Origin: a virus | DNA: 46,827 nucleotides | Direction: 5' to 3' (one strand) | Virus record (IMG/VR): IMGVR_UViG_3300045988_062651 | Coordinates: 1 to 46,827 of that record | Shown: positions 476-46,199 of the stretch, one piece after another | How positions within the stretch are numbered: the first letter of the stretch is position 1 | How the letters are laid out: each line of letters starts with the position of its first letter | Position numbers and translations under genes: made by a program | Notes under the pieces: model-generated | Told to the model about the DNA's origin: nothing | The model's database searches: none | The model's input: the letters and a program-made list of their open reading frames with translations, nothing else

Positions 476-483
476 GACTTTTG

Positions 484-522
484 CCCTGGAGGGAACCCTC
501 CAAAACCCTCCGGGGTATTTTC
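484..522 (+). terminator. Intrinsic terminator after the first early gene
   Basis: The 10-bp stem CCCTGGAGGG/CCCTCCGGGG (one G-T pair) is followed by TATTTT. The internal CCCTCC allows an alternative pairing. Confidence 0.6.
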
Positions 523-637
523 CAGATTGCTCCCTTGCTTGGCAGAATGGGTGCGCAAACACTTAAAGTTTTATGCGCCATACCAAAAATTTTTAATAAA
601 CCAAGGGAACTAATTAAAGGTGCATAGGCACCAATAC

Positions 638-671
638 CCTTGCGGCCCTTGATTGCGGCCCCTTGGGTGCC
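638..671 (+). promoter_or_regulatory. GC-rich leader element, copy 1 (CCTTGCGGCCCTTGATTGCGGCCCCTTGGGTGCC)
   Basis: Near-duplicate of 1877-1908. The GGCC blocks can pair as a hairpin. It lies about 60 nt upstream of the ATG at 730. Confidence 0.45.
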
Positions 672-729
672 AAAAGTCCTGAGTAACTCAGGCAGTTATT
701 AATAAAAAACCTTAAAATTATTAAGTATT

Positions 730-1182: not shown

Positions 1183-1185
1183 AAG

Positions 1186-1214
1186 AGAGGGGGGACTGGT
1201 TCCCCCTTCTTTTT
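1186..1214 (+). terminator. Intrinsic terminator
   Basis: Stem AGAGGGGGGA/TCCCCCTTCT, loop CTGGT, then TTTT. Confidence 0.7.
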
Positions 1215-1254
1215 GTCCTCCATAAAGAATAGAATTGTGCGGGAGCGATACCCG

Positions 1255-1515
1255 ATGGAGGACCCATTAAGTAATCTTATTAAAACAATGAAAGAGAAAG
1301 TATTTAATGCAATCCTTAGTATTGCGGTAGTAGGTCTTGGAGCTCTTATACTCCTTGCAGAAACAAGCCTCCTGATACACCATGGAGTAACACCTGAGAT
1401 GGCCCTTATAGGCAGTCTCTACACAGGGTCCCTTGGCTGGATAATCCTTGCCGCGGTCCTCACAACTACTGACTGGTTCTATGACCACGTAACTAGCAAA
1501 ATCATCAAGAAGTAA
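1255..1515 (+). CDS. Small membrane protein (86 aa from the ATG at 1255; the ORF track starts at a TTG at 1213)
   Basis: Two hydrophobic segments (AILSIAVVGLGALILL and GSLGWIILAAVL). The ATG at 1255 lies downstream of the terminator at 1186-1214. Confidence 0.6.
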   Translation: MEDPLSNLIKTMKEKVFNAILSIAVVGLGALILLAETSLLIHHGVTPEMALIGSLYTGSLGWIILAAVLTTTDWFYDHVTSKIIKK

Positions 1516-1538
1516 CCTTAAAATTATAAGCAAACATT

Positions 1539-1763
1539 ATGGAGAAGATTTTCAAACTTATCGCAGTTGTCGTCCTTAAGGTTGACAATGTGCTCTACAA
1601 AACTTTTGGACTTGTAAGTCCTTTTAGGAGACACAGCTGGGCCCTCAGTGGCAAGAGGCTCCAAAGAGACTTGGACCGCGAGCACGCCACGCGGGACTAT
1701 CTTAATTACCTCTATGGCACAAGTTACACCACTAAGCAAGCCCTTGCATTGCAAAAGGACTAA
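1539..1763 (+). CDS. Hypothetical early protein (74 aa)
   Basis: ORF with the leader AACCTTAAAATTATAAGCAAACATTATG. Confidence 0.55.
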   Translation: MEKIFKLIAVVVLKVDNVLYKTFGLVSPFRRHSWALSGKRLQRDLDREHATRDYLNYLYGTSYTTKQALALQKD

Positions 1764-1774
1764 GTGCTCCGAGA

Positions 1775-1813
1775 ACCCTAAGCCCTTATTCACAAATAAG
1801 TGCTTAGGGTTTG
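1775..1813 (+). terminator. Intrinsic terminator-like hairpin
   Basis: The 9-bp stem ACCCTAAGC/GCTTAGGGT is followed by TTGAT. Confidence 0.5.
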
Positions 1814-1836
1814 ATACAACTTATCTATATATTTAT

Positions 1837-1844
1837 TATATTTG
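1837..1844 (+). promoter_or_regulatory. -7 promoter element TATATTTG (early promoter 2)
   Basis: Exact TAnnTTTG match, 94 nt upstream of the ATG at 1938. Confidence 0.55.
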
Positions 1845-1876
1845 TATATAAGTTGAACGGGGGATAATCCCTATAT

Positions 1877-1908
1877 CCTTGGGCCCTTGAGTGCGGCCCT
1901 TGGGTACC
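1877..1908 (+). promoter_or_regulatory. GC-rich leader element, copy 2
   Basis: CCTTGGGCCCTTGAGTGCGGCCCTTGGGTACC, a near-duplicate of 638-671. Confidence 0.45.
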
Positions 1909-1937
1909 AAATAAAACCTTAAAATCATTAAAGTATT

Positions 1938-2324
1938 ATGACAAACAATTCCCTTTTTGCGGCGCTTTATCGTGGGTACTATGAAGCCGCTAATGACAAT
2001 TCAAGGGTTGCACTTTTGGAGTACTTTGTCCCGGTCATCAGCCGTTGGAATATCCAATGGGGCGATGGTACTCTGGACCCTTTCTCAAATCAGATAATCA
2101 AGTTTGTACATTCGAACGAGAAGCACTTCCTGAAGTACTTTGGAAAAGGCACAAAGCTTGTGTACGGAACTTATTCGAGGAACAATGGTGTCTACTTCAG
2201 TATTGCGGCTCTGGCCAACTTCAATTTTGACCTTCTCCCGAGCCCTGACTTTATTGTGGAGCGGTCCAATGGCCGCCAATACTACTTATATAGGCTGGAA
2301 GACTATGACACCCTAGAACCTTAA
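1938..2324 (+). CDS. Hypothetical early protein (128 aa)
   Basis: ORF with the conserved leader AACCTTAAAATCATTAAAGTATTATG. Confidence 0.7.
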   Translation: MTNNSLFAALYRGYYEAANDNSRVALLEYFVPVISRWNIQWGDGTLDPFSNQIIKFVHSNEKHFLKYFGKGTKLVYGTYSRNNGVYFSIAALANFNFDLLPSPDFIVERSNGRQYYLYRLEDYDTLEP

Positions 2325-2379
2325 TACCAAAATTATATAAAGTTGCACAAGGACTGATACAACATATAAATATAATTGC

Positions 2380-2387
2380 TATATTTG
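2380..2387 (+). promoter_or_regulatory. -7 promoter element TATATTTG (early promoter 3)
   Basis: Exact match, 22 nt upstream of the ATG at 2409. Confidence 0.55.
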
Positions 2388-2408
2388 TAGTAGTTAAATA
2401 GAAGCACA

Positions 2409-2591
2409 ATGAACCAATACGACAAACAATACTTCAAGGATGCGGTTCTTGGAACTGAGTCCAGACACACGGAGCACTGCGACGTGGAATATAACAAGGA
2501 CCTTGATGCGTATATGCTCTTCAAGAACGGCAAACTTGTCGGAGAGGCTAAGGTCCTGAACAACGAAGTATATATTACAAACCTTAAATAG
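2409..2591 (+). CDS. Hypothetical early protein (60 aa)
   Basis: ORF directly downstream of the promoter element at 2380. Confidence 0.55.
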   Translation: MNQYDKQYFKDAVLGTESRHTEHCDVEYNKDLDAYMLFKNGKLVGEAKVLNNEVYITNLK

Positions 2592-2599
2592 TCACTAAG

Positions 2600-2875
2600 A
2601 TGGAAAAGAAAACTGAAAAGCGCACCTTTAGCGCTATCGCTGCGGAGGTCATGAACCTCTGGAAAACAAAGTACTGAAAATATCTTCCTTGGTCCTTGAA
2701 GGGCGCTCTCCCTTATCTGGAAGCAATGCTTGAGTGCGACACCACCGACAAGGACGCGCGATATTACGCAGAGACCGTAGAAAGCGTGGTCATCTGCTTC
2801 CGGGCCAACATTAACAACTGGAGAGGCGCCGACGCCAAGCGCATCAAGGCGGAACTCAAAGAGATGCTCAAGTAA
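2600..2875 (+). CDS. Hypothetical early protein interrupted by an in-frame TGA at 2675-2677 (25 codons, TGA, 65 codons, TAA)
   Basis: Hand translation gives MEKKTEKRTFSAIAAEVMNLWKTKY*KYLPWSLKGALPYLEAMLECDTTDKDARYYAETVESVVICFRANINNWRGADAKRIKAELKEMLK. The leader AACCTTAAATAGTCACTAAG precedes the ATG at 2600. No other plus-strand ORF occupies this gene-sized slot. Confidence 0.5.
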
Positions 2876-2902
2876 AAAGTAATCTTAAAAACATTAAGTA
2901 AT

Positions 2903-3289
2903 ATGGAAAAAGCAAAAGAAATCGAGCTCTTACAGAGCCTCAAGGGTGACACTTATTTCGCTCGGCTTTTTGGCGACCAACAAATCGACGCCATGTGTGA
3001 GAACATTAAAAATGACTTCCCAATTGAACTTGGCTTGAATCTTTTTGAGGGTTCTTCTGTTGCTAAAGAGAATGCGGAACTGAGGAAACAACTTACTCGC
3101 CATGTAAACTGGGAAGAGTCTGTAGCAGAAGGCCTCCTCCTTAAAGCGAATGAACATATGGATGACTCGCTTGAGGGCCTCGCTGCGCGTCTTATTGGCT
3201 ATGAGAAATGTCTGGCTATCAAGCTCCACCTCGCGTTACCCCTTTCTGGAGAAGACCGTGACACTCTAGTTAAACTTTTAACAAAATAA
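2903..3289 (+). CDS. Hypothetical early protein (128 aa)
   Basis: ORF with the leader AATCTTAAAAACATTAAGTAATATG. Confidence 0.7.
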   Translation: MEKAKEIELLQSLKGDTYFARLFGDQQIDAMCENIKNDFPIELGLNLFEGSSVAKENAELRKQLTRHVNWEESVAEGLLLKANEHMDDSLEGLAARLIGYEKCLAIKLHLALPLSGEDRDTLVKLLTK

Positions 3290-3294
3290 GTATT

Positions 3295-3591
3295 ATGAAA
3301 AAGATTAGCGCAAAAAGTAAGCTCGGCCAACACTTTGTTGAGGCTTACATAAGAAGTACACGGCATACCCTTAAAGACGCCTATGTCAAACCAAGTAGCG
3401 CAAAACAGGCTGTCTTCAAACGTTGCCAGCGGCAATGCGAAGCGGAGAAGGGCGATGGCCTTAAGGTCATTAGCTTTAATTGTAACCAATTCACAGTTGC
3501 CTTTGAAGTGACTACAGCTTCTGGAGCTACCGAGCTCCGCGTAATAACCAAGCGTAATGACTATGTAATCCCTTTTGGAGACAAGATATGA
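3295..3591 (+). CDS. Hypothetical early protein (98 aa)
   Basis: ORF preceded by TAAGTATTATG. Confidence 0.65.
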   Translation: MKKISAKSKLGQHFVEAYIRSTRHTLKDAYVKPSSAKQAVFKRCQRQCEAEKGDGLKVISFNCNQFTVAFEVTTASGATELRVITKRNDYVIPFGDKI

Positions 3592-3914
3592 AAGCAAATG
3601 AACTAATGCTTGGCGACTGGGTGAAAGATAAATATAAACCCAAGCCTTATATGGTGGATAGTTGGAAGGACTTTAATAGTGCTGAAGATTTATCCCCTAT
3701 CCCGCTCACTTATGAAATCCTTAAAAAGAATGGATGGAAAGACACTGAATTTTGGTGCGAATATCAAGATGATAATATTTATATTCAGGCTTCTCTACCA
3801 TATATGCGAGGAAGAATTAACGGGATTGAGATTGAGCGCTTCCAATGCGAGTATATACACCAATACCAGCATTTACTTCGCTTGTGTGGACTTGAAAAAG
3901 AAATAAGTATATGA
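3588..3914 (+). CDS. Hypothetical early protein (108 aa)
   Basis: ORF whose start overlaps the upstream stop (ATGA), suggesting translational coupling. Confidence 0.65.
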   Translation: MKANELMLGDWVKDKYKPKPYMVDSWKDFNSAEDLSPIPLTYEILKKNGWKDTEFWCEYQDDNIYIQASLPYMRGRINGIEIERFQCEYIHQYQHLLRLCGLEKEISI

Positions 3915-4049
3915 AAGCAGTTCTTACCAAGCAATCAGGCATGAAGTCCAATACTTTCATTTTGGTAAAGATAATGAGGGAGCAAAAGCCCCTGAGAGCA
4001 AAATGAAAAATAACTTTATAAAAATAGCATAAAAGTCAAAAAAAGTTAT

Positions 4050-4057
4050 TATATTTG
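4050..4057 (+). promoter_or_regulatory. -7 promoter element TATATTTG (early promoter 4)
   Basis: Exact match, 52 nt upstream of the ATG at 4109. Confidence 0.55.
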
Positions 4058-4108
4058 TAGAAAGAAAAATTAAATTTTTTAACCTTAATTTTTAATCCTT
4101 AAAGTATT

Positions 4109-5089
4109 ATGAAACGTAATTTCAAAAAAATGTCCGACGAAGAGTTGGTTGCTCTTCAGGAAACCGCAGATGAACAGACACTTGCTGCTATCGAAGCTGA
4201 ACTTGAATCCCGTGCTACTGCAGCGGCCGAACAGGTCTCTGTAGAAGAGCAGACCGCAGACCCTTCTGAGGACGCTGAGGCCGAGACCGCCGATGGTGCT
4301 GAGCAGGACAAAGCCGCAGAGCTTGAGGAGCTTCTTGCTGAGTGCCAGAAGAATGTTGGTCACCGCTGCAAACTGGTCCCTGTTGGTACCATCGAGTGGG
4401 AAGAAGGTACGGTTGTCGGCTGTGTGAAAATCAAGCGTTCCAACACGGTTGCTTACGCAGTCAAGCTTGACAACGGTAAGCGTGTAGTGAAGAACTACAA
4501 GGCTCCTCTGTTCGAGATTCTCGATGAGGTTGTCGAGCGCGCCAAGGTTACTCGTCATGCTGGTTCACGCACCAAGGCTGAACTTTGGTCTGAGGAGCGT
4601 ATGACTGAAGAAGTTAACAAGTATATCCACAATGTTGGTCGTGCCATTGTCCTCAAGGGTGCTACTGAGGAAGAGAACGTCACTGGCCAGATTACAGGTA
4701 TCGTACCTGTTAAGCGTTCCAACTCAGTTCTCTATCGTGTAGCGGTTCCTGCTCCTACTGAGGAGGACCCTGAGGCTGTTGCCATCGTTCACAAGTCTGT
4801 TGCGAACATTGCTGCTTATGACATCATGGCTGCCACTGAGGAATCTGAGGCTTTCAACGCCAACTATATGGCCCGTCGCGAGAACATGGCCAACCGTACA
4901 CCTCTGACTGGCGCCGAGCTTGTTCTTGACCTCGAGCTTAAGCTTGAGAAAGCTAAGGAGGCCGTTAAGAAAGCTGAAGAGCGTGTCGCTACTCTGGAGA
5001 AAGCTATAGCTGAGAAGAAAGCTCAGCTTGAGGCTACCGCTGCAGAGCCTACCGCAGAAACTACTTCTGAAGAAGAGAACATGCTTTAA
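4109..5089 (+). CDS. Hypothetical early protein (326 aa): acidic N-terminus, two copies of the module shared with 730-1182, C-terminal coiled coil
   Basis: Motifs GHRCKLVPVGTIEWEEGTVVG and VGRAIVLKGATEEENVTGQITGIVPVKRSNSVLYRV. The N-terminal 70 aa are rich in E, D and A. It has the conserved leader. Confidence 0.8.
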   Translation: MKRNFKKMSDEELVALQETADEQTLAAIEAELESRATAAAEQVSVEEQTADPSEDAEAETADGAEQDKAAELEELLAECQKNVGHRCKLVPVGTIEWEEGTVVGCVKIKRSNTVAYAVKLDNGKRVVKNYKAPLFEILDEVVERAKVTRHAGSRTKAELWSEERMTEEVNKYIHNVGRAIVLKGATEEENVTGQITGIVPVKRSNSVLYRVAVPAPTEEDPEAVAIVHKSVANIAAYDIMAATEESEAFNANYMARRENMANRTPLTGAELVLDLELKLEKAKEAVKKAEERVATLEKAIAEKKAQLEATAAEPTAETTSEEENML

Positions 5090-5118
5090 TCAGTATGCAA
5101 ACGTCTAAACATAGGACA

Positions 5119-5149
5119 AGCCCTCGAGTACCCGCTCGGGGGCTTTTTG
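5119..5149 (+). terminator. Intrinsic terminator
   Basis: Stem AGCCCTCGAG/CTCGGGGGCT followed by TTTTTG. Confidence 0.7.
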
Positions 5150-5172
5150 TTTAATTATAAATCCTTAGAATT

Positions 5173-5385
5173 ATGCCATACAAAAGACCCTTATGGTACG
5201 TTGTAGACGACGGAGGCGTGTATAACGTGTTCTCCTCGGACGACTTCGATGAAGACGGACAGTATACGGTAAATCCGGAATACTCTCTCGACGACTTTGA
5301 TATTATCGCCAAATACACGACGGCGGACGCCGCTTGGAATGAAGCTGAGCGCCTGAATCAATTAAGTGAAAAAGACAGGTATTAG
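5173..5385 (+). CDS. Hypothetical acidic early protein (70 aa)
   Basis: ORF with the leader ATCCTTAGAATTATG. Confidence 0.6.
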   Translation: MPYKRPLWYVVDDGGVYNVFSSDDFDEDGQYTVNPEYSLDDFDIIAKYTTADAAWNEAERLNQLSEKDRY

Positions 5386-5387
5386 GC

Positions 5388-5519
5388 ATGAAAGCAAAAT
5401 CAAGGATAGGTTTTTTATTTGGTCCAGAATTGGCCAAAAATTTTTGGATAGTAAATTATATTCTGGATATTTTCTGGCTTGCCAGAAGAGCTGAAATATA
5501 TCTAATTTTTCAAATTTAG
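5388..5519 (+). CDS. Possible 43-aa ORF lying inside repeat element A
   Basis: ATG at 5388 and TAG at 5517. The peptide MKAKSRIGFLFGPELAKNFWIVNYILDIFWLARRAEIYLIFQI resembles a frame of element B at 34253-34347. Confidence 0.25.
   Translation: MKAKSRIGFLFGPELAKNFWIVNYILDIFWLARRAEIYLIFQI
5407..5502 (+). repeat. Dispersed ~95-nt repeat, element A (partner is element B at 34253-34347, opposite strand)
   Basis: Hand alignment of A against the reverse complement of B shows shared blocks CCAGAATTG, AAAAATTT, TGGATAGT, AATTATATT, GCCAGAAGAGC and AAATATATC. Confidence 0.7.
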
Positions 5520-5573
5520 AACTTATTCATCAGTCCATTTTCCTCATTTCGAAATTTACCCTTAAGATATAAT

Positions 5574-6110
5574 ATGTTTGAGACTTTTCAGTTATCTAAT
5601 GACGCTTTCTATTACCTCAAAAATGGAGAGGAACCGCTCGTTGATGAGGCGCTGGATGAAGCACTTGTAGTTGAGGCCCTATATCCAGACGGGTTTACAA
5701 TACTTGACTTCAAACCACTTGGTAATACGGGCTACATTGAAGCGCGAATAGGCCCTAAGATAGTAATGCCGGCCAAAGCTTTGCAGCCTGCCATTAAGCC
5801 TATAACTCAAAGGTGCCAAGAGCTTGGTTATAATGCTGAGACCGTAGAGCGTAACCGCAAAGAGTATGCTGACTCAGATGAAGTGCAAATGCTTTCAAAT
5901 GTATGCCGCTTAGAAATTGTTTGGCTTAATGCTGGGCGCACACAACTAAGGGTTTACTGGAACCGGCTTGACTTGGGCCAAAGAACAGTATTCGGTGAGT
6001 TTCCTGTTTGGTCAACGCCTAAAGGCCTTAAGTATTTTCAGGGAACAAATCCTAATGGCACATTTTACAGATTTTATTTGAAGCATTTTAATAAAGTAGT
6101 TAAATCATGA
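5574..6110 (+). CDS. Hypothetical protein (178 aa)
   Basis: Long ORF with the leader ACCCTTAAGATATAATATG. Confidence 0.7.
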   Translation: MFETFQLSNDAFYYLKNGEEPLVDEALDEALVVEALYPDGFTILDFKPLGNTGYIEARIGPKIVMPAKALQPAIKPITQRCQELGYNAETVERNRKEYADSDEVQMLSNVCRLEIVWLNAGRTQLRVYWNRLDLGQRTVFGEFPVWSTPKGLKYFQGTNPNGTFYRFYLKHFNKVVKS

Positions 6111-6544
6111 CACTTGCAGAACTTATTGAACAATGCGTACGAGTCGAAGGACAAGTGACCGCCGCGCACATTCCTATGGTCAATGCAGATGGAAGTCCCT
6201 TCGAAGTGGAAAATCTTAGCATTGTTACCCGAGAAGATGGTACATTATATGTGGCAGTCCAAGGTCCTGAGAGCCTTCAGCCCGGAACCTACGCAATTCC
6301 TGAAGATTGTACTTTCAAGTACGCTAATCGTCAGATTATTGTGGTTCCTAAAAAAGTCAAAGATACAAGCGTTTTACGGTGCGGTACTTGTAAGCACATC
6401 AAGACCGGAAACAAATGCTGTAAGGGCCAATACTGGGAAACACAGTATTGCGAACTTAAACCAAAAACTATTGGCGGTAAAGCCGAGTATTTTTATCATG
6501 TAAGTCCGAGCGCCAAAGCTTGTGATAAATACGAGGAAGCTTAG
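6107..6544 (+). CDS. Hypothetical Cys-rich protein (145 aa)
   Basis: ATGA overlap with the upstream gene. Contains the cysteine cluster CGTCKHIKTGNKCCKGQYWETQYC. Confidence 0.65.
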   Translation: MTLAELIEQCVRVEGQVTAAHIPMVNADGSPFEVENLSIVTREDGTLYVAVQGPESLQPGTYAIPEDCTFKYANRQIIVVPKKVKDTSVLRCGTCKHIKTGNKCCKGQYWETQYCELKPKTIGGKAEYFYHVSPSAKACDKYEEA

Positions 6545-6732: not shown

Positions 6733-7446
6733 CTATTTTTCGACTCTAAAAACATAACCTTTACCATATACCGTTACTATCTTAACTTTAGGGTCCGCAG
6801 CAATGTATTTGCGTATTGCAGTCATATAGAAGTCCAGGCTACGTTTTGCAAACACATCAATCTGGTGCCACACAGCACTTAGTATTACTTGCGTCATAAG
6901 TAATTGATTTGGGCTGCTAAAGAGGTACGTCATAATGGAGAACTCCTTGTCCGTCAGTTCTATAGTCTTGTGCCCGTCAAAGAACGTGTGGTCCTCAGTA
7001 TTCAAGACCATATCGTGAATTACGTACTCTTTCTTGAATTGTAAAAAGCGAAGAGGCGCATGTTTTGTCCAGGTACGTAGGCGCCACACAAATTCTTCTG
7101 TATTATACGGTTTACGTACAAAGTCTGAAACACCGGCTTCATAAGCAGCAACGGCAGCAAGCGGGTCGTCGTTCTCAACACAAAGAATAATTGGAACGTT
7201 AGGATAATACTTTTGCATTGTGTGCACAAGCGTAAGGTCATTAGGCCTGTCGTACTTATGATAATAATCAAGTACTGCAACGTCAATATTATCTTTGGCA
7301 ATTTCGGATAGCGCGTTTTCCTCGTCTACAGCCCAAGCATTAAAGCATTGTTCCTGTAAGTATTTTACAAGAGTGTCCGCGCCATCATTTTGGAACACCA
7401 AGACACTATACTGCCCAAGGTGCTCAAGTATTGATTGTCTACTCAT
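6733..7446 (-). CDS. Orphan OmpR/PhoB-family response regulator (receiver plus winged-helix DNA-binding domain) with a degenerate receiver pocket
   Basis: Receiver: VLVFQND replaces the hhhhDD motif, VAVLDY retains the acceptor Asp, PIILCVE lacks the conserved Thr/Ser, and DFVRKPY retains the Lys. C-terminus: LTDKEFSIMTYL...VWHQ...RSLDFYMTAIRKYI...IVTVYGKGYVF matches the trans_reg_C pattern. Confidence 0.8.
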   Translation of the reverse strand: MSRQSILEHLGQYSVLVFQNDGADTLVKYLQEQCFNAWAVDEENALSEIAKDNIDVAVLDYYHKYDRPNDLTLVHTMQKYYPNVPIILCVENDDPLAAVAAYEAGVSDFVRKPYNTEEFVWRLRTWTKHAPLRFLQFKKEYVIHDMVLNTEDHTFFDGHKTIELTDKEFSIMTYLFSSPNQLLMTQVILSAVWHQIDVFAKRSLDFYMTAIRKYIAADPKVKIVTVYGKGYVFRVEK

Positions 7447-16107: not shown

Positions 16108-18087
16108 TTAATCCTTTAAGTAAAAAGGTGTTACATATCCGTCGGCTTTAAGGGGCATATCTAAGGCCCACTTAGGCTGTTTATCCATAATGCTCACAAT
16201 CTTATTATAGTGGTCTTCCGCATTTTCTTTTGGTATTTCAATGAGGACTTCATCGTGAATATGACAAATAGGAAGATAGCCGGCCGCCGCAAGATTGAGC
16301 ATAGAATTGCCCAACATATCTCTAGCTGTAGCCTGTACAATATTCTCGGTCAGCTTTCCGCCGTAAGTATCAATATCGCCCCAAACGCCTTTATCAGTAG
16401 TACCTTCATAGAAGATATTAGAACTCTGATATGTTGAACTTCCTACACGTACGTTTTTGAAATGAGGATGCCGGTAATAAAGCTTTCTGCCAGAAGGGAG
16501 TTTGATAGTCAAGTTCTCGCCATCACACTCAAAAACTAATTTACGAACAGTAGCTGTAACAGGCTTATGATACTTGATAGCGGTAACTGCCGCGGTCTCA
16601 AGCTCAGACCACATCTTTACGATTGCAGGATTTGCATTACGCCATTTCCTAACCAGGTCAAGCTCGACTTGCTGAGATAGCCCCATATCGTGACCACCCA
16701 TTCTTTCAAGCGCATTAACACCTCCACCATAGCCAAGGGCCAGCTCAGAGATTTTGGACTTCTGCCTCAACTCGGAACCTTTGGTAATTGCTGAGATTGG
16801 AACACCGAACATCTTAGAACCTGTAGCCTCGTAGATTTTGCCATCACCGTTAAACACGTCCATTCTCCACTGTTCATTAGCATACCAGGAAATAACACGT
16901 GCCTCAATGGCAGAGAAGTCAGCAACACCTATGAGCATACCATCAGGAGCAATGATAGCTGTACGGATAAGCTGTGACAGAATGTCTGATACGTCGTCGT
17001 ACATCATACCAACAACATTAACGTCGCCAGTTTTTACAGCTTCTCTTGCTATCTCAATATGGCTAATATGATTCTTAGCAAGGTTCTGCAACTGCAGAAG
17101 ACGACCAGCCCAACGACCTGTCCGGTTTGCGCCATAGAACTGAAATGTGCCTCTGATACGTCTATCGTCCATAGCACAATTAAGCATCATCTGGTACTTC
17201 TTAATAGAGGACTTTGCAAGTTTCTTGCGTAAGTCCAGCATCTGGATAACCTCAGGAAATTTGGCGTAATCCTCATATAGCTGAGGCAGGTATCGCTTCT
17301 CAAAGGACTCAGGCCTTAGGCCTGTAGTGGCCTCAATCCAGTCTGCAAGTTGCGCCACAGAATTAGGATTCTCCAGGCCAGTCAGGTCTTGTGCTTCTTT
17401 GAGAACCTGTGCAGAGTACTTCTCATTTATATCAAGGGCCTTCTCGGCCAAGTCAAGGTCGAGTAGAATGCCTTTGTCGTTAATCTGCTGGTCTAAGATA
17501 TAAAGTGCTAATTCAGATTCTGGCCACTCTACATGCATTTCTTCAGTGAGCTTATAGAATATCTCACGCTCAGACCGCACATCATAGTCATTATATTCCT
17601 TATAGCTTTCCCACTTTTCTGGGTCATCTTCCGGATAGTTTCTGGTCTTGTTAGGGTCAGCTTTAGTAGGCTTACAAGGACACGAGAAGAACCTAATCAG
17701 CAGAAGTCCCGTAGCAAGTTTACGCTCTTTTATTTTAAGAATATCGCAAACGTCTTTCAAGGCGAGAGGTAAGCCGGCATACGCAGACAAAATAAGAGTA
17801 TCACGCCATTGCTCAATAGAGGTCTTCATACCAATACGAGCAAAGCATCGGCGCTCAAAAGCAGAGTTATGCGCTACCTTAATAACATTAGGGTCATTAA
17901 GAGCATTAACCAGGCGTTCAGGCCATTCTTCGCCATTTACCAGGTCAACAACAGCAACCGGTTCGTGGTTAAAAGCATAGCCACAAATAAGAACCTCGAA
18001 CTCTGGGTCTTCAACATATTTGTAAAGACCTACAGTTTTCAAATCTCTCGAGGAGTACGTTTCTAAATCTATAAATAAGTAGTCCAT
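16108..18087 (-). CDS. polA: Family A DNA polymerase with an N-terminal 3'-5' exonuclease
   Basis: ExoI FIDLETYS, motif A DFSAIEARV, motif B RQKSKISELALGYGGG, motif C HIHDEVLIE. Confidence 0.9.
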   Translation of the reverse strand: MDYLFIDLETYSSRDLKTVGLYKYVEDPEFEVLICGYAFNHEPVAVVDLVNGEEWPERLVNALNDPNVIKVAHNSAFERRCFARIGMKTSIEQWRDTLILSAYAGLPLALKDVCDILKIKERKLATGLLLIRFFSCPCKPTKADPNKTRNYPEDDPEKWESYKEYNDYDVRSEREIFYKLTEEMHVEWPESELALYILDQQINDKGILLDLDLAEKALDINEKYSAQVLKEAQDLTGLENPNSVAQLADWIEATTGLRPESFEKRYLPQLYEDYAKFPEVIQMLDLRKKLAKSSIKKYQMMLNCAMDDRRIRGTFQFYGANRTGRWAGRLLQLQNLAKNHISHIEIAREAVKTGDVNVVGMMYDDVSDILSQLIRTAIIAPDGMLIGVADFSAIEARVISWYANEQWRMDVFNGDGKIYEATGSKMFGVPISAITKGSELRQKSKISELALGYGGGVNALERMGGHDMGLSQQVELDLVRKWRNANPAIVKMWSELETAAVTAIKYHKPVTATVRKLVFECDGENLTIKLPSGRKLYYRHPHFKNVRVGSSTYQSSNIFYEGTTDKGVWGDIDTYGGKLTENIVQATARDMLGNSMLNLAAAGYLPICHIHDEVLIEIPKENAEDHYNKIVSIMDKQPKWALDMPLKADGYVTPFYLKD

Positions 18088-18089
18088 AG

Positions 18090-18168
18090 TGCGCTCAACT
18101 AGATTCGAACTAGCATTGTCAGCAAGCGGTCAAGCAAGACTGAGGACTTACCATTAGTCTATGAGCGC
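18090..18168 (-). tRNA. tRNA-like element 1: canonical acceptor, D and T arms, but a 15-nt anticodon loop
   Basis: Minus strand: GCGCTCA TA GACT AATGGTA AGTC C TCAGT CTTGCTTGACCGCTT GCTGA CAAT GCTAG TTCGAAT CTAGT TGAGCGC A. The loop contains the direct duplication CTTGCT(T)GAC. The 3' end lies 2 nt before the polymerase ATG. Confidence 0.5.
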
Positions 18169-18190
18169 TATCCTTAAAATCATTAAGTTG

Positions 18191-18214
18191 ATATTGTATT
18201 TCACAACACAATAT
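18191..18214. other. 7-bp hairpin between the two tRNA-like elements
   Basis: ATATTGT (N10) ACAATAT. Confidence 0.4.
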
Positions 18215-18217
18215 TTG

Positions 18218-18300
18218 TAGCTCGGGCTGGTAACGAACCAGCTAATGAGATTTCGAGCATTACCTCGTCCGACGACTTTCTATTACGTCCTATCCGAGCT
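18218..18300 (-). ncRNA. tRNA-like element 2: class-II-like cloverleaf with aberrant D and anticodon arms
   Basis: Minus strand: acceptor AGCTCGG/CCGAGCT (7 bp), T arm GCTGG TTCGTTA CCAGC, stem GACG/CGTC with an 11-nt loop, stem CGAG/CTCG with a 6-nt loop GTAATG, and a short extra arm AAT CTC ATT. Confidence 0.35.
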
Positions 18301-18307: not shown

Positions 18308-18859
18308 CTACAGCATGTCGCTGTCTTTGTACTCGTTGTCGCCACCGAAGTCCTGCTCTGCGGAAGCACCAGCAAGCGGCTCGCCTTCAGCTAACTTCTG
18401 GAGGTTCTGCAGACCGGCAGCAATACCTTTGTTACCGTTAGCATTGAATGCGTAGAAGTTAATAGAGGCGCGGCCGTAACAACCAGAGTAAAAGTCCTCA
18501 GGAGTGATGATTTCATTCAGCTGGGCGTCAACCACACCTGGACGACGGTTGCTGCTTGCATTGAGGAAGAAGGAGTCAGCATAAGCCTCATCGTCTGGAC
18601 GGTCAGTGTCACCGTCACGGAGCGGAATCTTTATGTTAGCAGGAATCTTGCCTGTCTTGTCAGCAAGCTTTGCTTTTCCGGCAACCTTCGCGGCCTCGAT
18701 AGCCTTGTTGATGTGGTCAAGTGTAGCCTTGTCGTTCTTCGGAATGATAATAGAAACACTGTACTTTGGCTCAGACTTCTCGTCCATAGCCTTTGGCTGG
18801 AATACAGCCACGTAACTGAAGCGTACTTTTCCAGTTACAACTTTTGTTGTTTGTTCCAT
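18308..18859 (-). CDS. DUF2815-like single-stranded DNA-binding protein
   Basis: The N-terminus VVTGKVRFSYVAVFQPK...KYSVSIIIPKNDKAT and the acidic C-terminal tail DFGGDNEYKDSDML are typical of this phage SSB family. Confidence 0.75.
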   Translation of the reverse strand: MEQTTKVVTGKVRFSYVAVFQPKAMDEKSEPKYSVSIIIPKNDKATLDHINKAIEAAKVAGKAKLADKTGKIPANIKIPLRDGDTDRPDDEAYADSFFLNASSNRRPGVVDAQLNEIITPEDFYSGCYGRASINFYAFNANGNKGIAAGLQNLQKLAEGEPLAGASAEQDFGGDNEYKDSDML

Positions 18860-21491: not shown

Positions 21492-21702
21492 TGTTCTGCC
21501 TCATTTATTTTCATATACGAATATAGCTGAAATTTTTCATATAAAAAAATAAAATTAAAAAATTTTTTCGTTTTGCATTTAAGGGCTTTTTCAGCTAATT
21601 ATTAAGGCGTAAAAAGCATACGTAGCTGAAAACAGGCAGGCCAAGCTTCCTAAACAATACGTTCGAGCTCTAAACAATCCTAAACAATACTTTGTTTAAC
21701 CC

Positions 21703-21727
21703 TAACTAATTGAAAATCAATCAGTTA
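21703..21727. promoter_or_regulatory. 25-bp palindromic operator, copy 2
   Basis: TAACTAATTGAAAATCAATCAGTTA. Confidence 0.6.
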
Positions 21728-21804
21728 GACCATCCTAAACAATAAAACAATAATTTCTATATATAGTATATATGAATTTTATAAAATCCGTAAAATCTAT
21801 ATAA

Positions 21805-21812
21805 CAAATCTA
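21805..21812 (-). promoter_or_regulatory. -7 promoter element TAGATTTG (class II), reading toward the middle operon
   Basis: The plus strand reads CAAATCTA. The extended minus-strand string TTAGATTTGTTA is shared with 29085 and 42488. Confidence 0.5.
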
Positions 21813-21871
21813 AATTACAGTAATGGTCCAATGTTTTTATATATTTTATTGTTTTATTGTTTAGACTGTCC

Positions 21872-21896
21872 TAATTTATTGAAAATCAATCAGTTA
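21872..21896. promoter_or_regulatory. 25-bp palindromic operator, copy 3
   Basis: TAATTTATTGAAAATCAATCAGTTA. Confidence 0.55.
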
Positions 21897-21995
21897 TGAT
21901 AAACAAAGTATTGTTTAGGATTGTTTGAACGGCCAAATTATTGTTTAGAAACCGCATAACATGGGAATCAGTTTGAGACCGAACAGCTTGCGCAA

Positions 21996-22604
21996 TTATT
22001 GCACAATCTTCGTATAGCTAACATTTTTTATAGTGGTGTTCGGATTATGACTCACAACATCAACCTTTCTACTTTCAAGTTTTTTGCAGTACCATAGGAA
22101 ACCAAGGAACCTTTTACGGGTAACGCTCTCAACAATTTCCAAATCTTCTCGGTTAGCTATGTTGATTTGCATTGTGTCTTTTATCATATCGATAGTTCCG
22201 GACAGGTCTGTCCAGGCACTCGTATAGTTGAAAGTAGCAACTCCAGGTATCGTATCATGAACTGCAACAAGAATTGTATCACGAGTTTCTAGCTTAGTAT
22301 TAACAAGCGCTTCCAGGTCTTTGTTACGAATTTTGAGGCTTTCAATAAGTTTCATGTCCTCTTCTCGATAGGTCTTGAACTCTTTGGCTGTTAGCTCCAA
22401 ACTTCTGATTTGCGCAACATTTAGGCTGTCCTGGATTTGATAATGACGGACCTTTAATATAAGGTCATTATTTGACTCCAGAAGAACCTCCATATTTTCC
22501 TTAATACGGCCCAGATTCTTTTTATGGACTGAAATACGGTCGCATAATAAGCCGATAATCACGAATAGGACCAGGATTACAAGATAGGGTGTCAACTTTT
22601 TCAT
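21996..22604 (-). CDS. N-terminally anchored coiled-coil membrane protein (202 aa from the ATG at 22604); possible spanin-like lysis accessory
   Basis: TM segment LTPYLVILVLFVIIGLL followed by heptad-rich sequence. It is the last gene of the lysis cassette. Confidence 0.45.
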   Translation of the reverse strand: MKKLTPYLVILVLFVIIGLLCDRISVHKKNLGRIKENMEVLLESNNDLILKVRHYQIQDSLNVAQIRSLELTAKEFKTYREEDMKLIESLKIRNKDLEALVNTKLETRDTILVAVHDTIPGVATFNYTSAWTDLSGTIDMIKDTMQINIANREDLEIVESVTRKRFLGFLWYCKKLESRKVDVVSHNPNTTIKNVSYTKIVQ

Positions 22605-22661
22605 AACTGATAAAAAATTACCTCCAGGCAAGATACCAGGAGGCAGTTAAAAATGATTAAA

Positions 22662-22781
22662 CTACTTAGACTGAAGAGCCGTAACGATTGCCTTCAGTAC
22701 CGGAATAAGCTCGCTAGCTCTAAGCTGGTTGCCCTGTTCAAGCATCTTGTTAAGAGCAGCAGTCATTTCTTCATTTGTCAT
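22662..22781 (-). CDS. 39-aa ORF, paralogue of 24116-24268
   Basis: The peptide is MTNEEMTAALNKMLEQGNQLRASELIPVLKAIVTALQSK. It shares a 44-nt core (43/44 identical) with the second copy. Confidence 0.45.
   Translation of the reverse strand: MTNEEMTAALNKMLEQGNQLRASELIPVLKAIVTALQSK
22702..22745. repeat. 44-nt near-perfect direct repeat, copy 1 (partner 24189-24232)
   Basis: GGAATAAGCTCGCTAGCTCTAAGCTGGTTGCCCTGTTCAAGCAT compared with the same string carrying A for G at position 12. Confidence 0.9.
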
Positions 22782-24135: not shown

Positions 24136-24268
24136 TCCGCCGCCCCCCAGTTGATTCCGGAATTAAATCTATAATTTTATTTAGTGCAGGAATAAGCTCA
24201 CTAGCTCTAAGCTGGTTGCCCTGTTCAAGCATAGCCGTCAGGGCCATGCTAATTTCATTCTTTGTCAT
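24116..24268 (-). CDS. 50-aa ORF, paralogue of 22662-22781
   Basis: The peptide is MTKNEISMALTAMLEQGNQLRASELIPALNKIIDLIPESTGGRRSASSRN. It ends just after a G6 homopolymer (plus-strand C6 at 24143-24148). Confidence 0.45.
   Translation of the reverse strand: MTKNEISMALTAMLEQGNQLRASELIPALNKIIDLIPESTGGRRSASSRN
24189..24232. repeat. 44-nt near-perfect direct repeat, copy 2
   Basis: See 22702-22745. Confidence 0.9.
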
Positions 24269-34252: not shown

Positions 34253-34347
34253 GATATATTTTGGCTCTTCTGGCCAATCTGAAATTCTCCAAAATATAAT
34301 TAACTATCCAGAAATTTTTTGTCAATTCTGGAAGACGAAAAAACCTA
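34253..34347 (-). repeat. Dispersed ~95-nt repeat, element B (partner is element A at 5407-5502)
   Basis: See element A. Element B directly abuts the stop codon of the 88-aa membrane-protein gene. Confidence 0.7.
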
Positions 34348-46134: not shown

Positions 46135-46199
46135 GGCAATCTTGTGAGAAAATTGGCATTTTTTAGCGAATTTAACAGAAAATGGGGTCTTAAACAATA

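What the first reader, a model, noticed from the sequence alone, without database searches (positions are those of the whole stretch)
18090..18300. Two non-canonical tRNA-like elements fill the SSB-polymerase spacer, and the second ends 2 nt before the polymerase start codon
Element 1 (18168 down to 18090) has a perfect 7-bp acceptor stem, a D arm with a GG loop and a TTCGAAT T loop. Its 5-bp anticodon stem (TCAGT/GCTGA) encloses 15 nt (CTTGCTTGACCGCTT) instead of 7, including a direct duplication CTTGCT(T)GAC.

Element 2 (18300 down to 18218) has a 7-bp acceptor stem, a 5-bp T stem with loop TTCGTTA, a short extra arm as in class II tRNAs, a 4-bp anticodon-like stem with a 6-nt loop, and two extra nucleotides before the D stem. 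Neither element has a decodable anticodon with a preceding U33.

Possible roles:
- Processing punctuation. RNase P / RNase Z cleavage would leave the polymerase mRNA with a 2-nt leader, which is effectively leaderless.
- Decoys or cleavage-resistant substitutes aimed at host anticodon nucleases.
- Decayed tRNA genes.
Basis: partly seen in the sequence, partly recalled or inferred. Interest (0 to 1): 0.7.

Follow-up and report, generated by a model that had tools for sequence, protein, structure and literature searches.

The report
tRNA-shaped RNAs upstream of phage polymerase
Two conserved tRNA-shaped RNAs that cannot decode lie between a phage's single-strand-binding-protein gene and its DNA polymerase gene; they most likely act as cut-here signals and stable carriers for small RNAs, a layout shared by a clade of Bacteroidota-type phages that I could not find described.

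Summary
Element 1 (E1, 18090-18168, minus strand) is the only tRNA-family match in this complete 46.8-kb phage genome (Rfam tRNA 53.3 bits; ARAGORN 'tRNA-???'). Nine of its base pairs show compensatory changes across 10 variants. Its '15-nt loop' is really an extended helix with two U·U mismatches and a 6-nt loop, so it cannot decode. It ends exactly 2 nt before the polymerase ATG.

Element 2 (E2, 18218-18300) is a separate, more diverged tRNA-like cloverleaf. All stem positions pair in 14 variants, and six pairs show compensatory changes. Its 5' 30 nt are invariant among the 11 close relatives first aligned, while its 'anticodon' arm is swapped wholesale between near-identical phages.

Relatives with 48-90% polymerase identity, including cultured Bacteroides fragilis and Croceibacter phages, carry other tRNA-like RNAs in the same slot.

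Best reading: these are processing and scaffold elements inside the operon transcript, recognised by host RNase P and RNase Z. This is analogous to plant mitochondrial t-elements, mitochondrial tRNA punctuation and engineered tRNA scaffolds. Decay into pseudogenes is contradicted. Decoys for anticodon nucleases are unsupported.

The 49-nt linker between the elements carries a conserved sequence complementary to the translation-start regions of the opposite-strand (probably early) genes. It may be a released antisense RNA.

No cleavage or RNA accumulation has been shown.

The parts
18218..18300 (-). Element 2 (E2): an 83-nt diverged tRNA-like cloverleaf. Acceptor-like stem 18294-18300 pairs with 18219-18225; the discriminator-like A is at 18218. 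The D-like arm is GACG-UAAUAGAAAGU-CGUC. The variable 'cargo' hairpin is CGAG-GUAAUG-CUCG. The T-like arm is GCUGG-UUCGUUA-CCAGC.
   Evidence: MFE cloverleaf. In 14 distinct variants 100% of stem cells are paired, six pairs change on both sides, and 0/500 shuffles reach this. Covariance model R1 hits only this phage group plus L058. No Rfam family matches.
18191..18214 (-). Hairpin HP3: AUAUUGUGUU-GUGA-AAUACAAUAU. The apical motif UGYUGUGAAR is conserved, while the lower stem is replaced by unrelated but still pairing sequences in relatives.
   Evidence: three different stem sequences carry the same apical motif.
18172..18186 (-). Conserved 'anti-leader' sequence UUAAUGAUUUUAAGG, within small hairpin HP4 (18173-18187). 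It is exactly complementary to CCUUAAAAUCAUUAA, which lies 6 nt upstream of the ATG of plus-strand ORF 1938-2324. It is near-complementary to the leaders of other plus-strand genes.
   Evidence: (6 matches against 0.71 expected). The sequence is conserved in all relatives of the window group.
18090..18168 (-). Element 1 (E1): a 79-nt non-decoding tRNA-like RNA. Acceptor stem 18162-18168 pairs with 18091-18097; discriminator A is at 18090. The extended anticodon-position arm spans 18119-18143, with its apical loop UUGACC at 18128-18133.
   Evidence: ARAGORN. Rfam tRNA 53.3 bits. Covariation: 9 pairs change on both sides, 0/500 shuffles reach this. Tertiary-contact nucleotides are invariant.
18085..18089 (-). 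'CU' (18089-18088) followed by the ATG of the family-A DNA polymerase gene (18087-18085). This would be a 2-nt leader if the transcript is cut after the discriminator.
   Evidence: The same 'N73 + CU + AUGGACUA' junction occurs in 11 variants and in L057, where the tRNA-like is a different one.
18308..18859 (-). Upstream gene: Enc34-type (DUF2815) ssDNA-binding protein. Its stop codon is at 18308-18310, and E2 starts 7 nt after it.
   Evidence: Pfam PF10991, E=1.2e-68; sequence.
16108..18087 (-). Downstream gene: family-A DNA polymerase, 659 aa.
   Evidence: Pfam PF00476; homologues.
1917..1931 (+). Candidate target of the linker RNA: the leader motif CCTTAAAATCATTAA, 6 nt before the ATG of ORF 1938-2324. 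Similar copies lie at 710-724, 1516-1530 and 2883-2897, each just upstream of a plus-strand start codon.

Best explanation
E1 and E2 are selected, non-decoding tRNA-shaped RNAs. They are transcribed as part of the replication-operon mRNA, between the SSB and polymerase genes.

Their tRNA frame is a 7-bp acceptor stem stacked on a 5-bp T stem; E1 also keeps the canonical D/T-loop elbow, whereas E2's loops are diverged. This frame is what the host tRNA-maturation nucleases recognise. I propose that RNase P cuts at each 5' end, and that RNase Z (or an equivalent 3' pathway) cuts after each discriminator. Neither element encodes CCA.

This would have three consequences:
1. The SSB and polymerase messages are separated.
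2. In this phage the polymerase mRNA keeps only a 2-nt leader (CU-AUG), freeing a start codon that would otherwise lie at the foot of a stable helix.
3. Nuclease-resistant RNAs of about 80 nt are released, together with the 49-nt linker.

The anticodon-position arm plays no part in decoding. It behaves as a 'cargo' hairpin carried by the tRNA frame, as in engineered tRNA scaffolds.

What is shown: the folds, their conservation and covariation, the loss of the anticodon loop, the exact junction with the ATG, and the conservation of the slot across a phage clade.

What is inferred: co-transcription, cleavage by RNase P and RNase Z, accumulation of the small RNAs, and any function of the arms.
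For: 1. E1 is a genuine tRNA-like RNA.
- Rfam tRNA scores 53.3 bits against a gathering score of 29.
- U8, A14, G18G19, G53-C61 and T54-A58 are invariant in 10 variants.
- The acceptor, D and T stems all show compensatory changes: 9 pairs in total, with 0/500 shuffles reaching this.

2. E2 has the same architecture.
- It has a 7-bp acceptor-like stem directly abutting a 5-bp T-like stem with a 7-nt loop.
- All stem cells are paired and six pairs show compensatory changes in 14 variants.
- Its homologue in L058 has a GG D loop and a UUCGA T loop, which links it to tRNAs.

3. The spacer shows no sign of independent transcription.
- It has no intrinsic terminator-like site on the gene strand.
- It has no Bacteroidota-type TAnnTTTG promoter motif on either strand. 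The nearest upstream one on the gene strand is at 21812.

4. The polymerase start needs freeing.
- Only 4 of 52 genes have an SD-like 4-mer upstream.
- Leaders average 73% A+U, but the 20 nt before the polymerase ATG are the 3' half of E1 (50% A+U, paired).

5. The junction 'discriminator + CU + AUG' is invariant in 11 variants. It is retained in L057, where an unrelated tRNA-like replaces E1.

6. The slot is conserved. tRNA-like RNAs with abnormal anticodon arms sit between SSB and the polymerase gene in these relatives:
- L008-L011 and L029-L031 (33-48 bits)
- L012 and L032 (24.6 and 28.1 bits)
- L059 and L060
- L061, a near-canonical exception (normal 7-nt loop, but C33)
- Croceibacter phage P2559Y (52 bits)
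- B. fragilis phage BF486P2, where the cloverleaf is seen by MFE folding only
.
All lie on the gene strand. Those outside the window group end 16-40 nt before the ATG, except in P2559Y (about 560 nt).

7. There is precedent for each step.
- Plant mitochondrial t-elements separate mRNAs and are cut by RNase P.
- The tRNA-like precursor of P1/P7 C4 RNA and the his operon mRNA are RNase P substrates (PMC3858429).
- A tRNA frame with its anticodon arm replaced by a hairpin is processed and stable in bacteria (PMC3753655).
Against: - There are no expression or end-mapping data. Cleavage is purely inferred.
- The base at -1 of E1 is A, not the U that bacterial RNase P prefers (this preference is from my own knowledge).
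- Efficient translation of a 2-nt-leader mRNA in Bacteroidota is not established.
- E2's T loop (UUCGUUA) and its D loop (no GG) lack the canonical elbow contacts.
- Pure punctuation does not explain three things: why the E1 arm and the 5' 30 nt of E2 are more conserved in sequence than the stems; why the cargo CGGAAAYCGUCUGYGGAAACC is kept across three different scaffolds; and why the E2 arm is exchanged wholesale.
- In some relatives (L012, L039) a terminator-like hairpin lies between the SSB gene and the tRNA-like. There the tRNA-like would be reached only by read-through.
- More distant Bacteroides phages manage with a terminator and a promoter and have no tRNA-like.
Confidence: 0.5

Rival explanations
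1. The spacer is a cassette of tRNA-scaffolded regulatory RNAs. The tRNA frames are only vehicles for processing and stability. The active parts are the anticodon-position arms of E1 and E2 and, above all, the 49-nt linker released between them. The linker's sequence UUAAUGAUUUUAAGG would pair with the translation-start regions of the opposite-strand (probably early) genes and shut them off once the replication operon is expressed. This would be a P1 C4-like antisense mechanism. It extends the best explanation rather than excluding it.
For: - There is an exact 15-nt complement 6 nt before the ATG of ORF 1938. There is a 14/15 match before ORF 730, with further copies before other plus-strand ORFs: 6 matches against 0.71 expected.
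- The six strongest predicted duplexes among 54 gene leaders are all plus-strand leaders.
- In four relatives the genome's own linker sequence again finds plus-cluster start regions as most of its top hits.
- Phages whose linker has A at the polymorphic position have U in their targets. Two phages with G have C in their top targets. A third has U, giving G·U.
- The linker sequence is conserved, while the stem of the neighbouring hairpin is replaced.
- Cargo arms are either conserved across different scaffolds or swapped within identical scaffolds.
Against: - The motif is quasi-palindromic (CCTTAA-N5-TTAAG). The same pattern would arise if it were a double-stranded DNA site for a dimeric protein.
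- The covariation rests on few genomes.
- E2 arms show no consistent complementarity to their own genomes. Only L005b (13 nt) and weakly L006 (11 nt) match; the window, L003, L004 and L005a do not.
- The L008-type clade has no such linker.
- No expression data exist.
Confidence: 0.2
2. The structures act in cis as an uncleaved translational operator. E1 sequesters the polymerase start region and keeps polymerase synthesis low, or makes it depend on a protein that binds or melts the tRNA-like fold. Candidates are the phage SSB or polymerase, or a host tRNA-binding factor.
For: - The ATG lies 2 nt from a 7-bp G+C-rich helix, and E1 has a predicted free energy of -24 kcal/mol.
- Autogenous translational control of replication proteins is established for T4 gp32 and gp43 (my own knowledge).
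- The E1 arm sequence is conserved, as expected of a protein-binding site.
Against: - It does not explain why a full tRNA elbow is preserved (invariant G18G19 and T-loop).
- In relatives the tRNA-like ends 16-40 nt upstream of the ATG and leaves a free A+U-rich leader.
- It does not explain why unrelated tRNA-likes can be substituted.
Confidence: 0.1
3. The elements are anti-defence tRNA mimics. They would act as decoys that soak up host tRNA-targeting nucleases or other tRNA-binding defence proteins, or as substitutes for cleaved tRNAs.
For: - The tRNA shape is preserved.
- The E2 arm is hypervariable between near-identical phages, a pattern typical of arms races.
- Phage tRNAs that counter anticodon nucleases are known (my own knowledge).
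Against: - There is no 7-nt anticodon loop, no U33 and no anticodon. The RNAs can neither replace a tRNA in decoding nor present the loop that anticodon nucleases read.
- The arms resemble no tRNA anticodon arm.
- The position is fixed in front of the polymerase gene, not in a tRNA or anti-defence gene cluster.
- PHROGs scans of 20 of the window's unannotated ORFs found no RNA-repair or ligase partner.
Confidence: 0.06
4. They are decaying tRNA pseudogenes, or chance cloverleaves, with no function.
For: - Phage tRNA genes are gained and lost often.
- The same slot in relatives can hold a genuine tRNA-Gln (L057) or a near-canonical tRNA (L061).
- E1 contains a near-duplication, CUUGCU(U)GAC.
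Against: - Compensatory changes keep every stem paired. In L004, E1 differs at about a fifth of its positions (17 of 79 by my count of the alignment), yet all stems pair.
- Tertiary-contact nucleotides are invariant.
- E2's 5' 30 nt are invariant among the 11 close relatives first aligned, while neighbouring sequence changes.
- The slot is conserved across lineages down to 48% polymerase identity.
Confidence: 0.03
5. E1 is a real tRNA gene interrupted by a short intron or insertion that is removed to give a decoding tRNA.
For: - The extra 8 nt lie in the anticodon loop, where tRNA introns usually sit.
- The first 7 nt, CUUGCUU, could be read as a loop with anticodon UGC.
Against: - No known bacterial mechanism splices an 8-nt insert (my own knowledge).
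- Removing any 8 nt leaves U37, and there is no G3·U70 to match an Ala anticodon.
- Relatives show the region evolving as a helix: L004 is fully paired and L065 gains an A-U pair.
- In other clades the insert is 25-46 nt and unrelated in sequence.
Confidence: 0.03
6. The element works at the DNA level, as a replication origin or a single-strand initiation structure within the replication module.
For: It lies between the SSB and polymerase genes, and it is strongly structured as a single strand.
Against: - Conservation of tRNA-specific tertiary nucleotides and G·U pairs in the stems points to RNA of the gene strand.
- The obvious repeat-rich candidate origin or regulatory regions lie elsewhere, at 21647-21951 and 46194-46827.
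Confidence: 0.04

Closest known systems
Plant mitochondrial t-elements, and the animal mitochondrial tRNA punctuation model
   Same: tRNA-like or tRNA structures embedded in polycistronic transcripts mark where RNase P and RNase Z cut, and so define mRNA ends. Animal mitochondrial mRNAs are left with almost no 5' leader, as the CU-AUG junction here would be (PMC3858429 for t-elements; the punctuation model is from my own knowledge).
   Different: This is a bacteriophage operon of a probably Bacteroidota host. The elements have elaborate, conserved or exchanged anticodon-position arms. Cleavage is not demonstrated here.
Engineered tRNA scaffold for recombinant RNA (Ponchon and Dardel)
   Same: The acceptor stem, T arm and D arm are kept, and the anticodon stem-loop is replaced by a hairpin insert. 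Such chimeras are recognised by cellular processing enzymes and are stable in bacteria (PMC3753655). E1, E2 and the L008/L012-type elements have exactly this architecture.
   Different: That is a laboratory construct. A natural equivalent in phages has not, to my knowledge, been described. The function of the natural 'inserts' is unknown.
C4 antisense RNA of phages P1 and P7 (and the CI RNA of P4)
   Same: A phage small regulatory RNA is matured from a tRNA-like precursor by RNase P (PMC3858429). It acts by pairing with mRNA leader regions (my own knowledge). The linker's anti-leader sequence would work in the same way.
   Different: No Rfam family other than tRNA matches. Here the pairing sequence lies between two tRNA-likes rather than in the loops of one. 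The host phylum is different, and no immunity function is known.
mascRNA, the MALAT1 tRNA-like small RNA
   Same: A non-decoding tRNA-like at the end of a longer transcript is cut out by RNase P and RNase Z. This defines the end of the long RNA and yields a small stable RNA (my own knowledge).
   Different: That is a eukaryotic nuclear lncRNA. There is no downstream coding sequence abutting it.
Canonical phage tRNA genes (Rfam RF00005), and the stable RNA species 1 and 2 of the T4 tRNA cluster
   Same: E1 scores as a tRNA and shares all the core tertiary nucleotides. Relatives hold genuine or near-canonical tRNAs in the same spacer (L057, L061). T4 likewise mixes tRNAs with small stable RNAs of unknown function in one processed cluster (my own knowledge).
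   Different: E1 has no 7-nt anticodon loop, U33 or anticodon. E2 fails the tRNA model altogether.

Membership tests
tRNA (Rfam RF00005): E1 | A cloverleaf with 7/4/5/5-bp stems that scores at or above the family's gathering score | tested here: met
   53.3 bits against a gathering score of 29. All four stems are supported, three of them by compensatory changes.
tRNA (Rfam RF00005): E1 | Conserved tertiary-contact nucleotides: U8, A14, G18G19, G53-C61 and T54-Psi55-C56...A58 | tested here: met
   All are present and invariant in 10 variants.
tRNA (Rfam RF00005): E1 | A 7-nt anticodon loop with U33, a readable anticodon and a purine at position 37 | tested here: not met
   15 nt lie between the stem strands. 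They form an extended helix with a 6-nt loop, UUGACC. ARAGORN reports a 2-base 'anticodon'.
tRNA (Rfam RF00005): E1 | A 3' CCA end and aminoacylation | not testable with these tools
   No CCA is encoded (A73 is followed by CUAUG). Post-transcriptional CCA addition and charging cannot be assessed.
tRNA (Rfam RF00005): E2 | A score against the tRNA covariance model | tested here: not met
   There is no tRNA hit at E<=10 in a 600-nt search, nor in the whole-window search.
tRNA (Rfam RF00005): E2 | A four-arm cloverleaf in which the acceptor stem stacks directly on a 5-bp T stem with a 7-nt loop | tested here: met
   The homologue in L058 has a GG D loop and a UUCGAGC T loop.
tRNA-like mRNA punctuation elements (t-elements, mitochondrial punctuation, mascRNA) | A tRNA-like fold embedded in a longer transcript on the same strand as the flanking genes | tested here: met
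   The elements are on the gene strand. The spacer has no terminator-like site on that strand and no TAnnTTTG promoter motif. Co-transcription itself is inferred.
tRNA-like mRNA punctuation elements (t-elements, mitochondrial punctuation, mascRNA) | Endonucleolytic cleavage by RNase P at the 5' end and by RNase Z at the 3' end | not testable with these tools
   This needs end mapping or in vitro cleavage. Only the substrate features could be checked: the 12-bp acceptor/T helix, the elbow and the absence of an encoded CCA.
tRNA-like mRNA punctuation elements (t-elements, mitochondrial punctuation, mascRNA) | Conservation of the position relative to the flanking genes | tested here: met
   tRNA-likes occupy the SSB-polymerase spacer in at least five lineages. 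The CU-AUG junction is invariant within the window group and in L057.
C4-type phage antisense RNA | Complementarity of the small RNA to the leader or RBS region of target mRNAs | tested here: inconclusive
   Met for the linker sequence, although a DNA-operator reading is not excluded. Not met for the arms of E1 or E2.
C4-type phage antisense RNA | Sequence and structure homology to the described family | tested here: not met
   No Rfam family other than tRNA matches the spacer.
tmRNA and Y-RNA-like (YrlA) tRNA mimics | A match to the family models; a tag ORF (tmRNA) or a Ro-binding stem (YrlA) | tested here: not met
   ARAGORN finds no tmRNA. Rfam gives no such hits. The acceptor ends are open and the anticodon arm is closed, which is the reverse of YrlA (my own knowledge of YrlA).

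The most novel reading that the evidence does not exclude
A clade of Bacteroidota-type phages uses the SSB-polymerase spacer as a natural 'tRNA-scaffold' expression cassette.
- Host tRNA-processing enzymes cut a string of tRNA-shaped modules out of the replication-operon mRNA.
- Each module displays an exchangeable hairpin in place of the anticodon arm. These hairpins would act as specificity or anti-host modules.
- In the window's group the same cuts release a 49-nt antisense RNA. It pairs with a shared leader motif and shuts off translation of the whole opposite-strand early gene cluster.
- The last cut creates a nearly leaderless polymerase mRNA.
Probability: 0.2. Interest if true: 0.85.

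Novelty: new variant of a known kind. Interest (0 to 1): 0.65.

Why it matters
If the elements are cut as proposed, this would be the first example I know of in which tRNA punctuation organises a protein-coding operon in a phage. It would do so in a host phylum, Bacteroidota, where translation starts without Shine-Dalgarno pairing and mRNA processing is poorly understood.

It would also show that the laboratory 'tRNA scaffold' trick has a natural counterpart. The hypervariable or conserved arms would then be candidate functional small RNAs, and the linker a candidate phage riboregulator of early genes.

The system is testable. Relatives that carry such elements are in culture (B. fragilis phage BF486P2 and Croceibacter phage P2559Y). 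The window's polymerase cluster has 396 member sequences in public data.

In practical terms, such elements are reported by tRNA finders as 'tRNA-???' or pseudo-tRNAs and are easily discarded.

Tried and rejected
1. A plus-strand ORF downstream of the plus-strand copy of the leader motif in the spacer. It would encode only a 10-aa peptide, and its frame and sequence are not conserved in relatives. Rejected.

2. E2 arms as antisense RNAs to their own phage's early leaders. Only L005b (13 nt, 0/200 shuffles) and weakly L006 match; four others show nothing. There is no general rule.

3. An E2 cargo 21-mer matched one Bacteroidota MAG (L055), inside a long perfect hairpin with no Rfam family. About 0.3 chance hits are expected in 596 Gb, so I treated it as chance.

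4. A 17-mer from the E1 arm hit the unrelated high-GC contig L056, inside coding sequence. Chance.

5. Resemblance of hairpin HP3 or the arms to CRISPR repeats (RNA anti-CRISPR idea). This rested only on a 7-nt resemblance recalled from memory. It could not be tested without host arrays and was dropped.

6. Partner proteins such as RNA ligase, Ro or nucleotidyltransferase. PHROGs scans of 20 of the window's unannotated ORFs found none.

7. The Rfam gathering-threshold scan of the whole window missed E1. This was a filter effect: the E-value scan recovers it.

8. Searches of the held paper library found no description of these elements.

9. Host assignment via prophages. No close relative exists among 185,579 species genomes; the only hits are a 39%-identity hit in Alloiococcus and one mis-binned MAG contig, L046.
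Full report
**Setting.** The window is a complete phage genome: bases 1-55 repeat at 46773-46827. Genes 6733-46056 are on the minus strand, and a cluster of small orphan genes (278-6544) is on the plus strand. The finding lies in the replication module. Its gene order is DUF2800 nuclease, a small ORF, an Enc34/DUF2815-type SSB (18308-18859), a 220-nt spacer, family-A DNA polymerase (16108-18087), a VapE-type primase/helicase, VRR-NUC and SNF2.

The host is probably a member of the Bacteroidota.
- The closest cultured relatives are Bacteroides fragilis phages (54% polymerase identity) and Croceibacter phage P2559Y (48.5%).
- Only 4 of 52 genes have an SD-like 4-mer upstream.
- Leaders average 73% A+U.
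- TAnnTTTG promoter motifs occur in intergenic regions.

**Checking the observation.** E1 (18090-18168, minus strand) is called 'tRNA-???' by ARAGORN. It scores 53.3 bits against Rfam tRNA, whose gathering score is 29. It is the only tRNA-family match in the genome. The default-filter scan missed it.

E2 (18218-18300) matches no Rfam family, even at E<=10. Its minimum-energy fold is a four-arm cloverleaf.

The discriminator A (18090) is followed by CU and then the polymerase ATG. That ATG is the first possible start of the ORF. It aligns with the N-termini of homologues.

**Comparative evidence for E1.** Searches with the polymerase and with DNA patterns recovered near relatives (94-99% polymerase identity) from IMG/VR, metagenomes, one MAG and Logan assemblies. 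Ten distinct E1 sequences align without gaps.
- 92% of stem cells are paired.
- Nine pairs carry changes on both sides: four in the acceptor stem, two in the D stem, two in the T stem and one in the extended arm.
- No shuffle out of 500 reaches these values, and slid controls collapse.
- The nucleotides that build the tRNA elbow and core are invariant.

In L004 it reads CUUGU-UUGACC-ACAAG, fully paired. In L065 one U·U becomes A-U. E1 is therefore L-shaped, with a longer anticodon-side arm and a 6-nt loop. It cannot decode.

**Comparative evidence for E2.** Fourteen distinct E2 sequences pair in every stem cell. Six pairs carry double changes, and 0/500 shuffles reach this.

The 5' 30 nt (AGCUCGG-AUAG-GACG-UAAUAGAAAG...) and the stretch CAUUAG are invariant among the 11 close relatives first aligned. 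The arm in the anticodon position, by contrast, exists in at least five unrelated versions of roughly 20-45 nt among phages whose polymerases are 94-99% identical. That is cassette exchange, not drift.

A covariance model of E2 finds it only in this group, with one exception. In L058 (79% polymerase identity) an E2 homologue is the sole occupant of the spacer. It has a GG-containing D loop and a UUCGAGC T loop, and it is followed by a 16-nt A+U leader and the ATG. E2 is thus a diverged tRNA-like RNA, interchangeable in position with E1. L005 carries two E2 copies. L003, L004 and L046 carry a further module (E3), closed by an 11-bp stem that covaries.

**The slot is conserved across a clade.** Relatives at 52-62% polymerase identity carry one or two tRNA-like RNAs between the SSB and polymerase genes. 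These are L008-L011, L029-L031, L059, L060 and L061 (Rfam tRNA 33-48 bits where scored), and L012, L013 and L032 (24.6-28.1 bits). Most have 25-46 nt in place of the anticodon arm. All end 16-30 nt before the ATG. Croceibacter phage P2559Y has one (52 bits). B. fragilis phage BF486P2 has a cloverleaf seen by MFE folding only.

Two patterns stand out.
- The same scaffold can carry different arms (L008-A against L009).
- Different scaffolds can carry the same arm: CGGAAAYCGUCUGYGGAAACC in L008-A, L059 and L060, with compensatory changes in its basal stem.

In L057 (90% identity) the spacer is 505 nt. It contains a genuine tRNA-Gln, other hairpin modules and a different tRNA-like that again ends 'N73-CU-AUGGACUA'. 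More distant Bacteroides and Phocaeicola phages (38-44% identity) have only a terminator and a TAnnTTTG promoter there.

**Mechanism.** What is conserved is what RNase P and RNase Z read. In both elements this is the 12-bp acceptor/T helix; E1 also keeps the canonical D/T elbow. No CCA is encoded. What varies is the part those enzymes ignore.

The spacer has no terminator-like site on the gene strand and no promoter motif. It is therefore probably part of the operon transcript.

In the window group the polymerase start codon sits 2 nt from the acceptor helix. It is the only start examined whose upstream 20 nt are structured and not A+U-rich. The start must be freed, and cutting after the discriminator would do that. 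The retention of the CU-AUG register when the tRNA-like itself is replaced argues that this distance matters.

There are precedents.
- Plant mitochondrial t-elements, the P1/P7 C4 precursor and the his operon mRNA are RNase P substrates.
- tRNA frames carrying a foreign hairpin in place of the anticodon arm are processed and stable in bacteria.

I therefore favour 'processing and scaffold elements' at about 0.5. Every enzymatic step is inferred.

**The linker.** The 49 nt between E2 and E1 hold two features.
- A hairpin with a conserved UGYUGUGAAR apex, whose stem is replaced by other pairing sequences in relatives.
- The conserved sequence UUAAUGAUUUUAAGG.

The exact complement of that sequence lies 6 nt before the ATG of plus-strand ORF 1938. 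Near-copies precede ORFs 730, 1539 and 2903, giving 6 matches where 0.71 are expected.

Predicted duplexes rank six plus-strand leaders above all 41 minus-strand leaders. The same holds in four relatives when each genome's own linker sequence is used, with an A/U-to-G/C correspondence in two of the three G-variant genomes.

If the flanking tRNA-likes are cut, this linker would be released as a small antisense RNA against the probable early genes. There is a caveat. The motif is quasi-palindromic, so a DNA operator bound in either orientation would give the same pattern.

**Rivals.**
- Pseudogene decay is contradicted by the covariation.
- The intron idea is contradicted by the helix-like evolution of the insert and by the lack of a restorable loop.
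- The decoy or substitute idea lacks any anticodon-loop mimicry.
- An uncleaved operator does not explain the preserved elbow, or the free leaders in relatives.
- A DNA-level role does not explain the RNA-specific conservation.

**Novelty.** Searches of the held paper library found no description, and Rfam has no family for E2 or the linker. The principle is known: tRNA-like punctuation, and maturation of phage regulatory RNAs by RNase P. This family, its fixed place before a phage polymerase gene, the exchangeable arms and the possible anti-leader RNA appear to be new. I rate it a new variant of a known kind, with interest 0.65.

Noticed in passing
window 1-55 and 46675-46827: Bases 1-55 are identical to 46773-46827, so the window is a circularly closed or terminally redundant complete genome of about 46.77 kb. 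Three to four tandem 49-nt repeats (ATTTARTGCCTATCTCGAAT...) lie at this junction. They may be iterons or a packaging or origin region.
   Followed up: no
window 710-724, 1516-1530, 1917-1931, 2883-2897 (also 3273-3300 and 4087-4114): The plus-strand orphan genes share a leader motif, CCTTAAAAT(C/T)ATTAAGTATT-ATG, that is absent from the minus-strand genes. Relatives have the same motif (L042-L045). It may be a common translational control site for an early gene cluster.
   Followed up: partly
window 21647-21951 and 46194-46512: Two intergenic regions, one upstream of the replication operon and one at the far end of the minus-strand gene block (upstream of the structural genes), share a 97-nt repeat at 79% identity. 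They also share many TAAACAAT repeats and inverted repeats of the type CTAACTGACTGATTTTCAATAAGTTAG. These look like paired promoter and operator regions. A TAnnTTTG motif on the gene strand lies at 21812.
   Followed up: no
window 5412-5502 (+) and 34253-34343 (-): An intergenic element of about 110 nt, 80% identical, occurs once in the plus-strand cluster and once in the minus-strand late region. It has the same orientation relative to transcription in both places and contains repeated CCAGAA/TTCTGG motifs. It may be a shared promoter or operator, or a structured RNA.
   Followed up: partly
window 6733-7446 (-): The phage encodes an OmpR-type response regulator (receiver domain plus Trans_reg_C DNA-binding domain), at the far end of the minus-strand block.
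   Followed up: no
L057 838-1345; L061 1113-1184: In relatives the same spacer holds other RNAs. L057 has a genuine tRNA-Gln(UUG), a twice-repeated hairpin and a tRNA-like whose 6-nt loop contains CUA. L061 has a 72-nt tRNA that ARAGORN calls tRNA-Stop (anticodon UUA, ochre-suppressor-like), with C33 and U37. Whether any of these suppresses stop codons was not examined.
   Followed up: partly
L004 about 2650-2730; L003; L046 about 295-370 (minus strand): A third module (E3) precedes E2 in some relatives. It is closed by an 11-bp stem that covaries (GCGACUGAGCA/UGCUCAGUCGC against GCGGUUGAGC/GCUCAACCGC) and has an internal hairpin, AUAGCUC(A/G)AAGCUAU. It was not matched when L004 was scanned against Rfam, but it was never searched for specifically.
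   Followed up: no
L004 and L005, between E2 and hairpin HP3: Some relatives have a terminator-like hairpin with a U-tract (ACCUUG-UUUCCCU-CAAGGUUUUU) directly after E2. In them, E2 may end one transcript and E1 may begin or follow by read-through.
   Followed up: no
window 22693-22745 and 24180-24232: A 53-nt repeat at 92% identity ends in CAT on the plus strand. This means two minus-strand genes share nearly identical N-terminal coding sequence (MLEQGNQLRASELIP...). The true start of ORF 21996-22631 is probably further upstream than the TTG that was listed.
   Followed up: no
L055 3480-3800 (minus strand), Bacteroidota MAG: An intergenic region has an extreme predicted structure (z = -11). 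It includes a 26-bp perfect hairpin followed by a T-arm-like hairpin (GUGGGUUCGAUACCCAC). It matches no Rfam family and is probably unrelated to the finding.
   Followed up: partly
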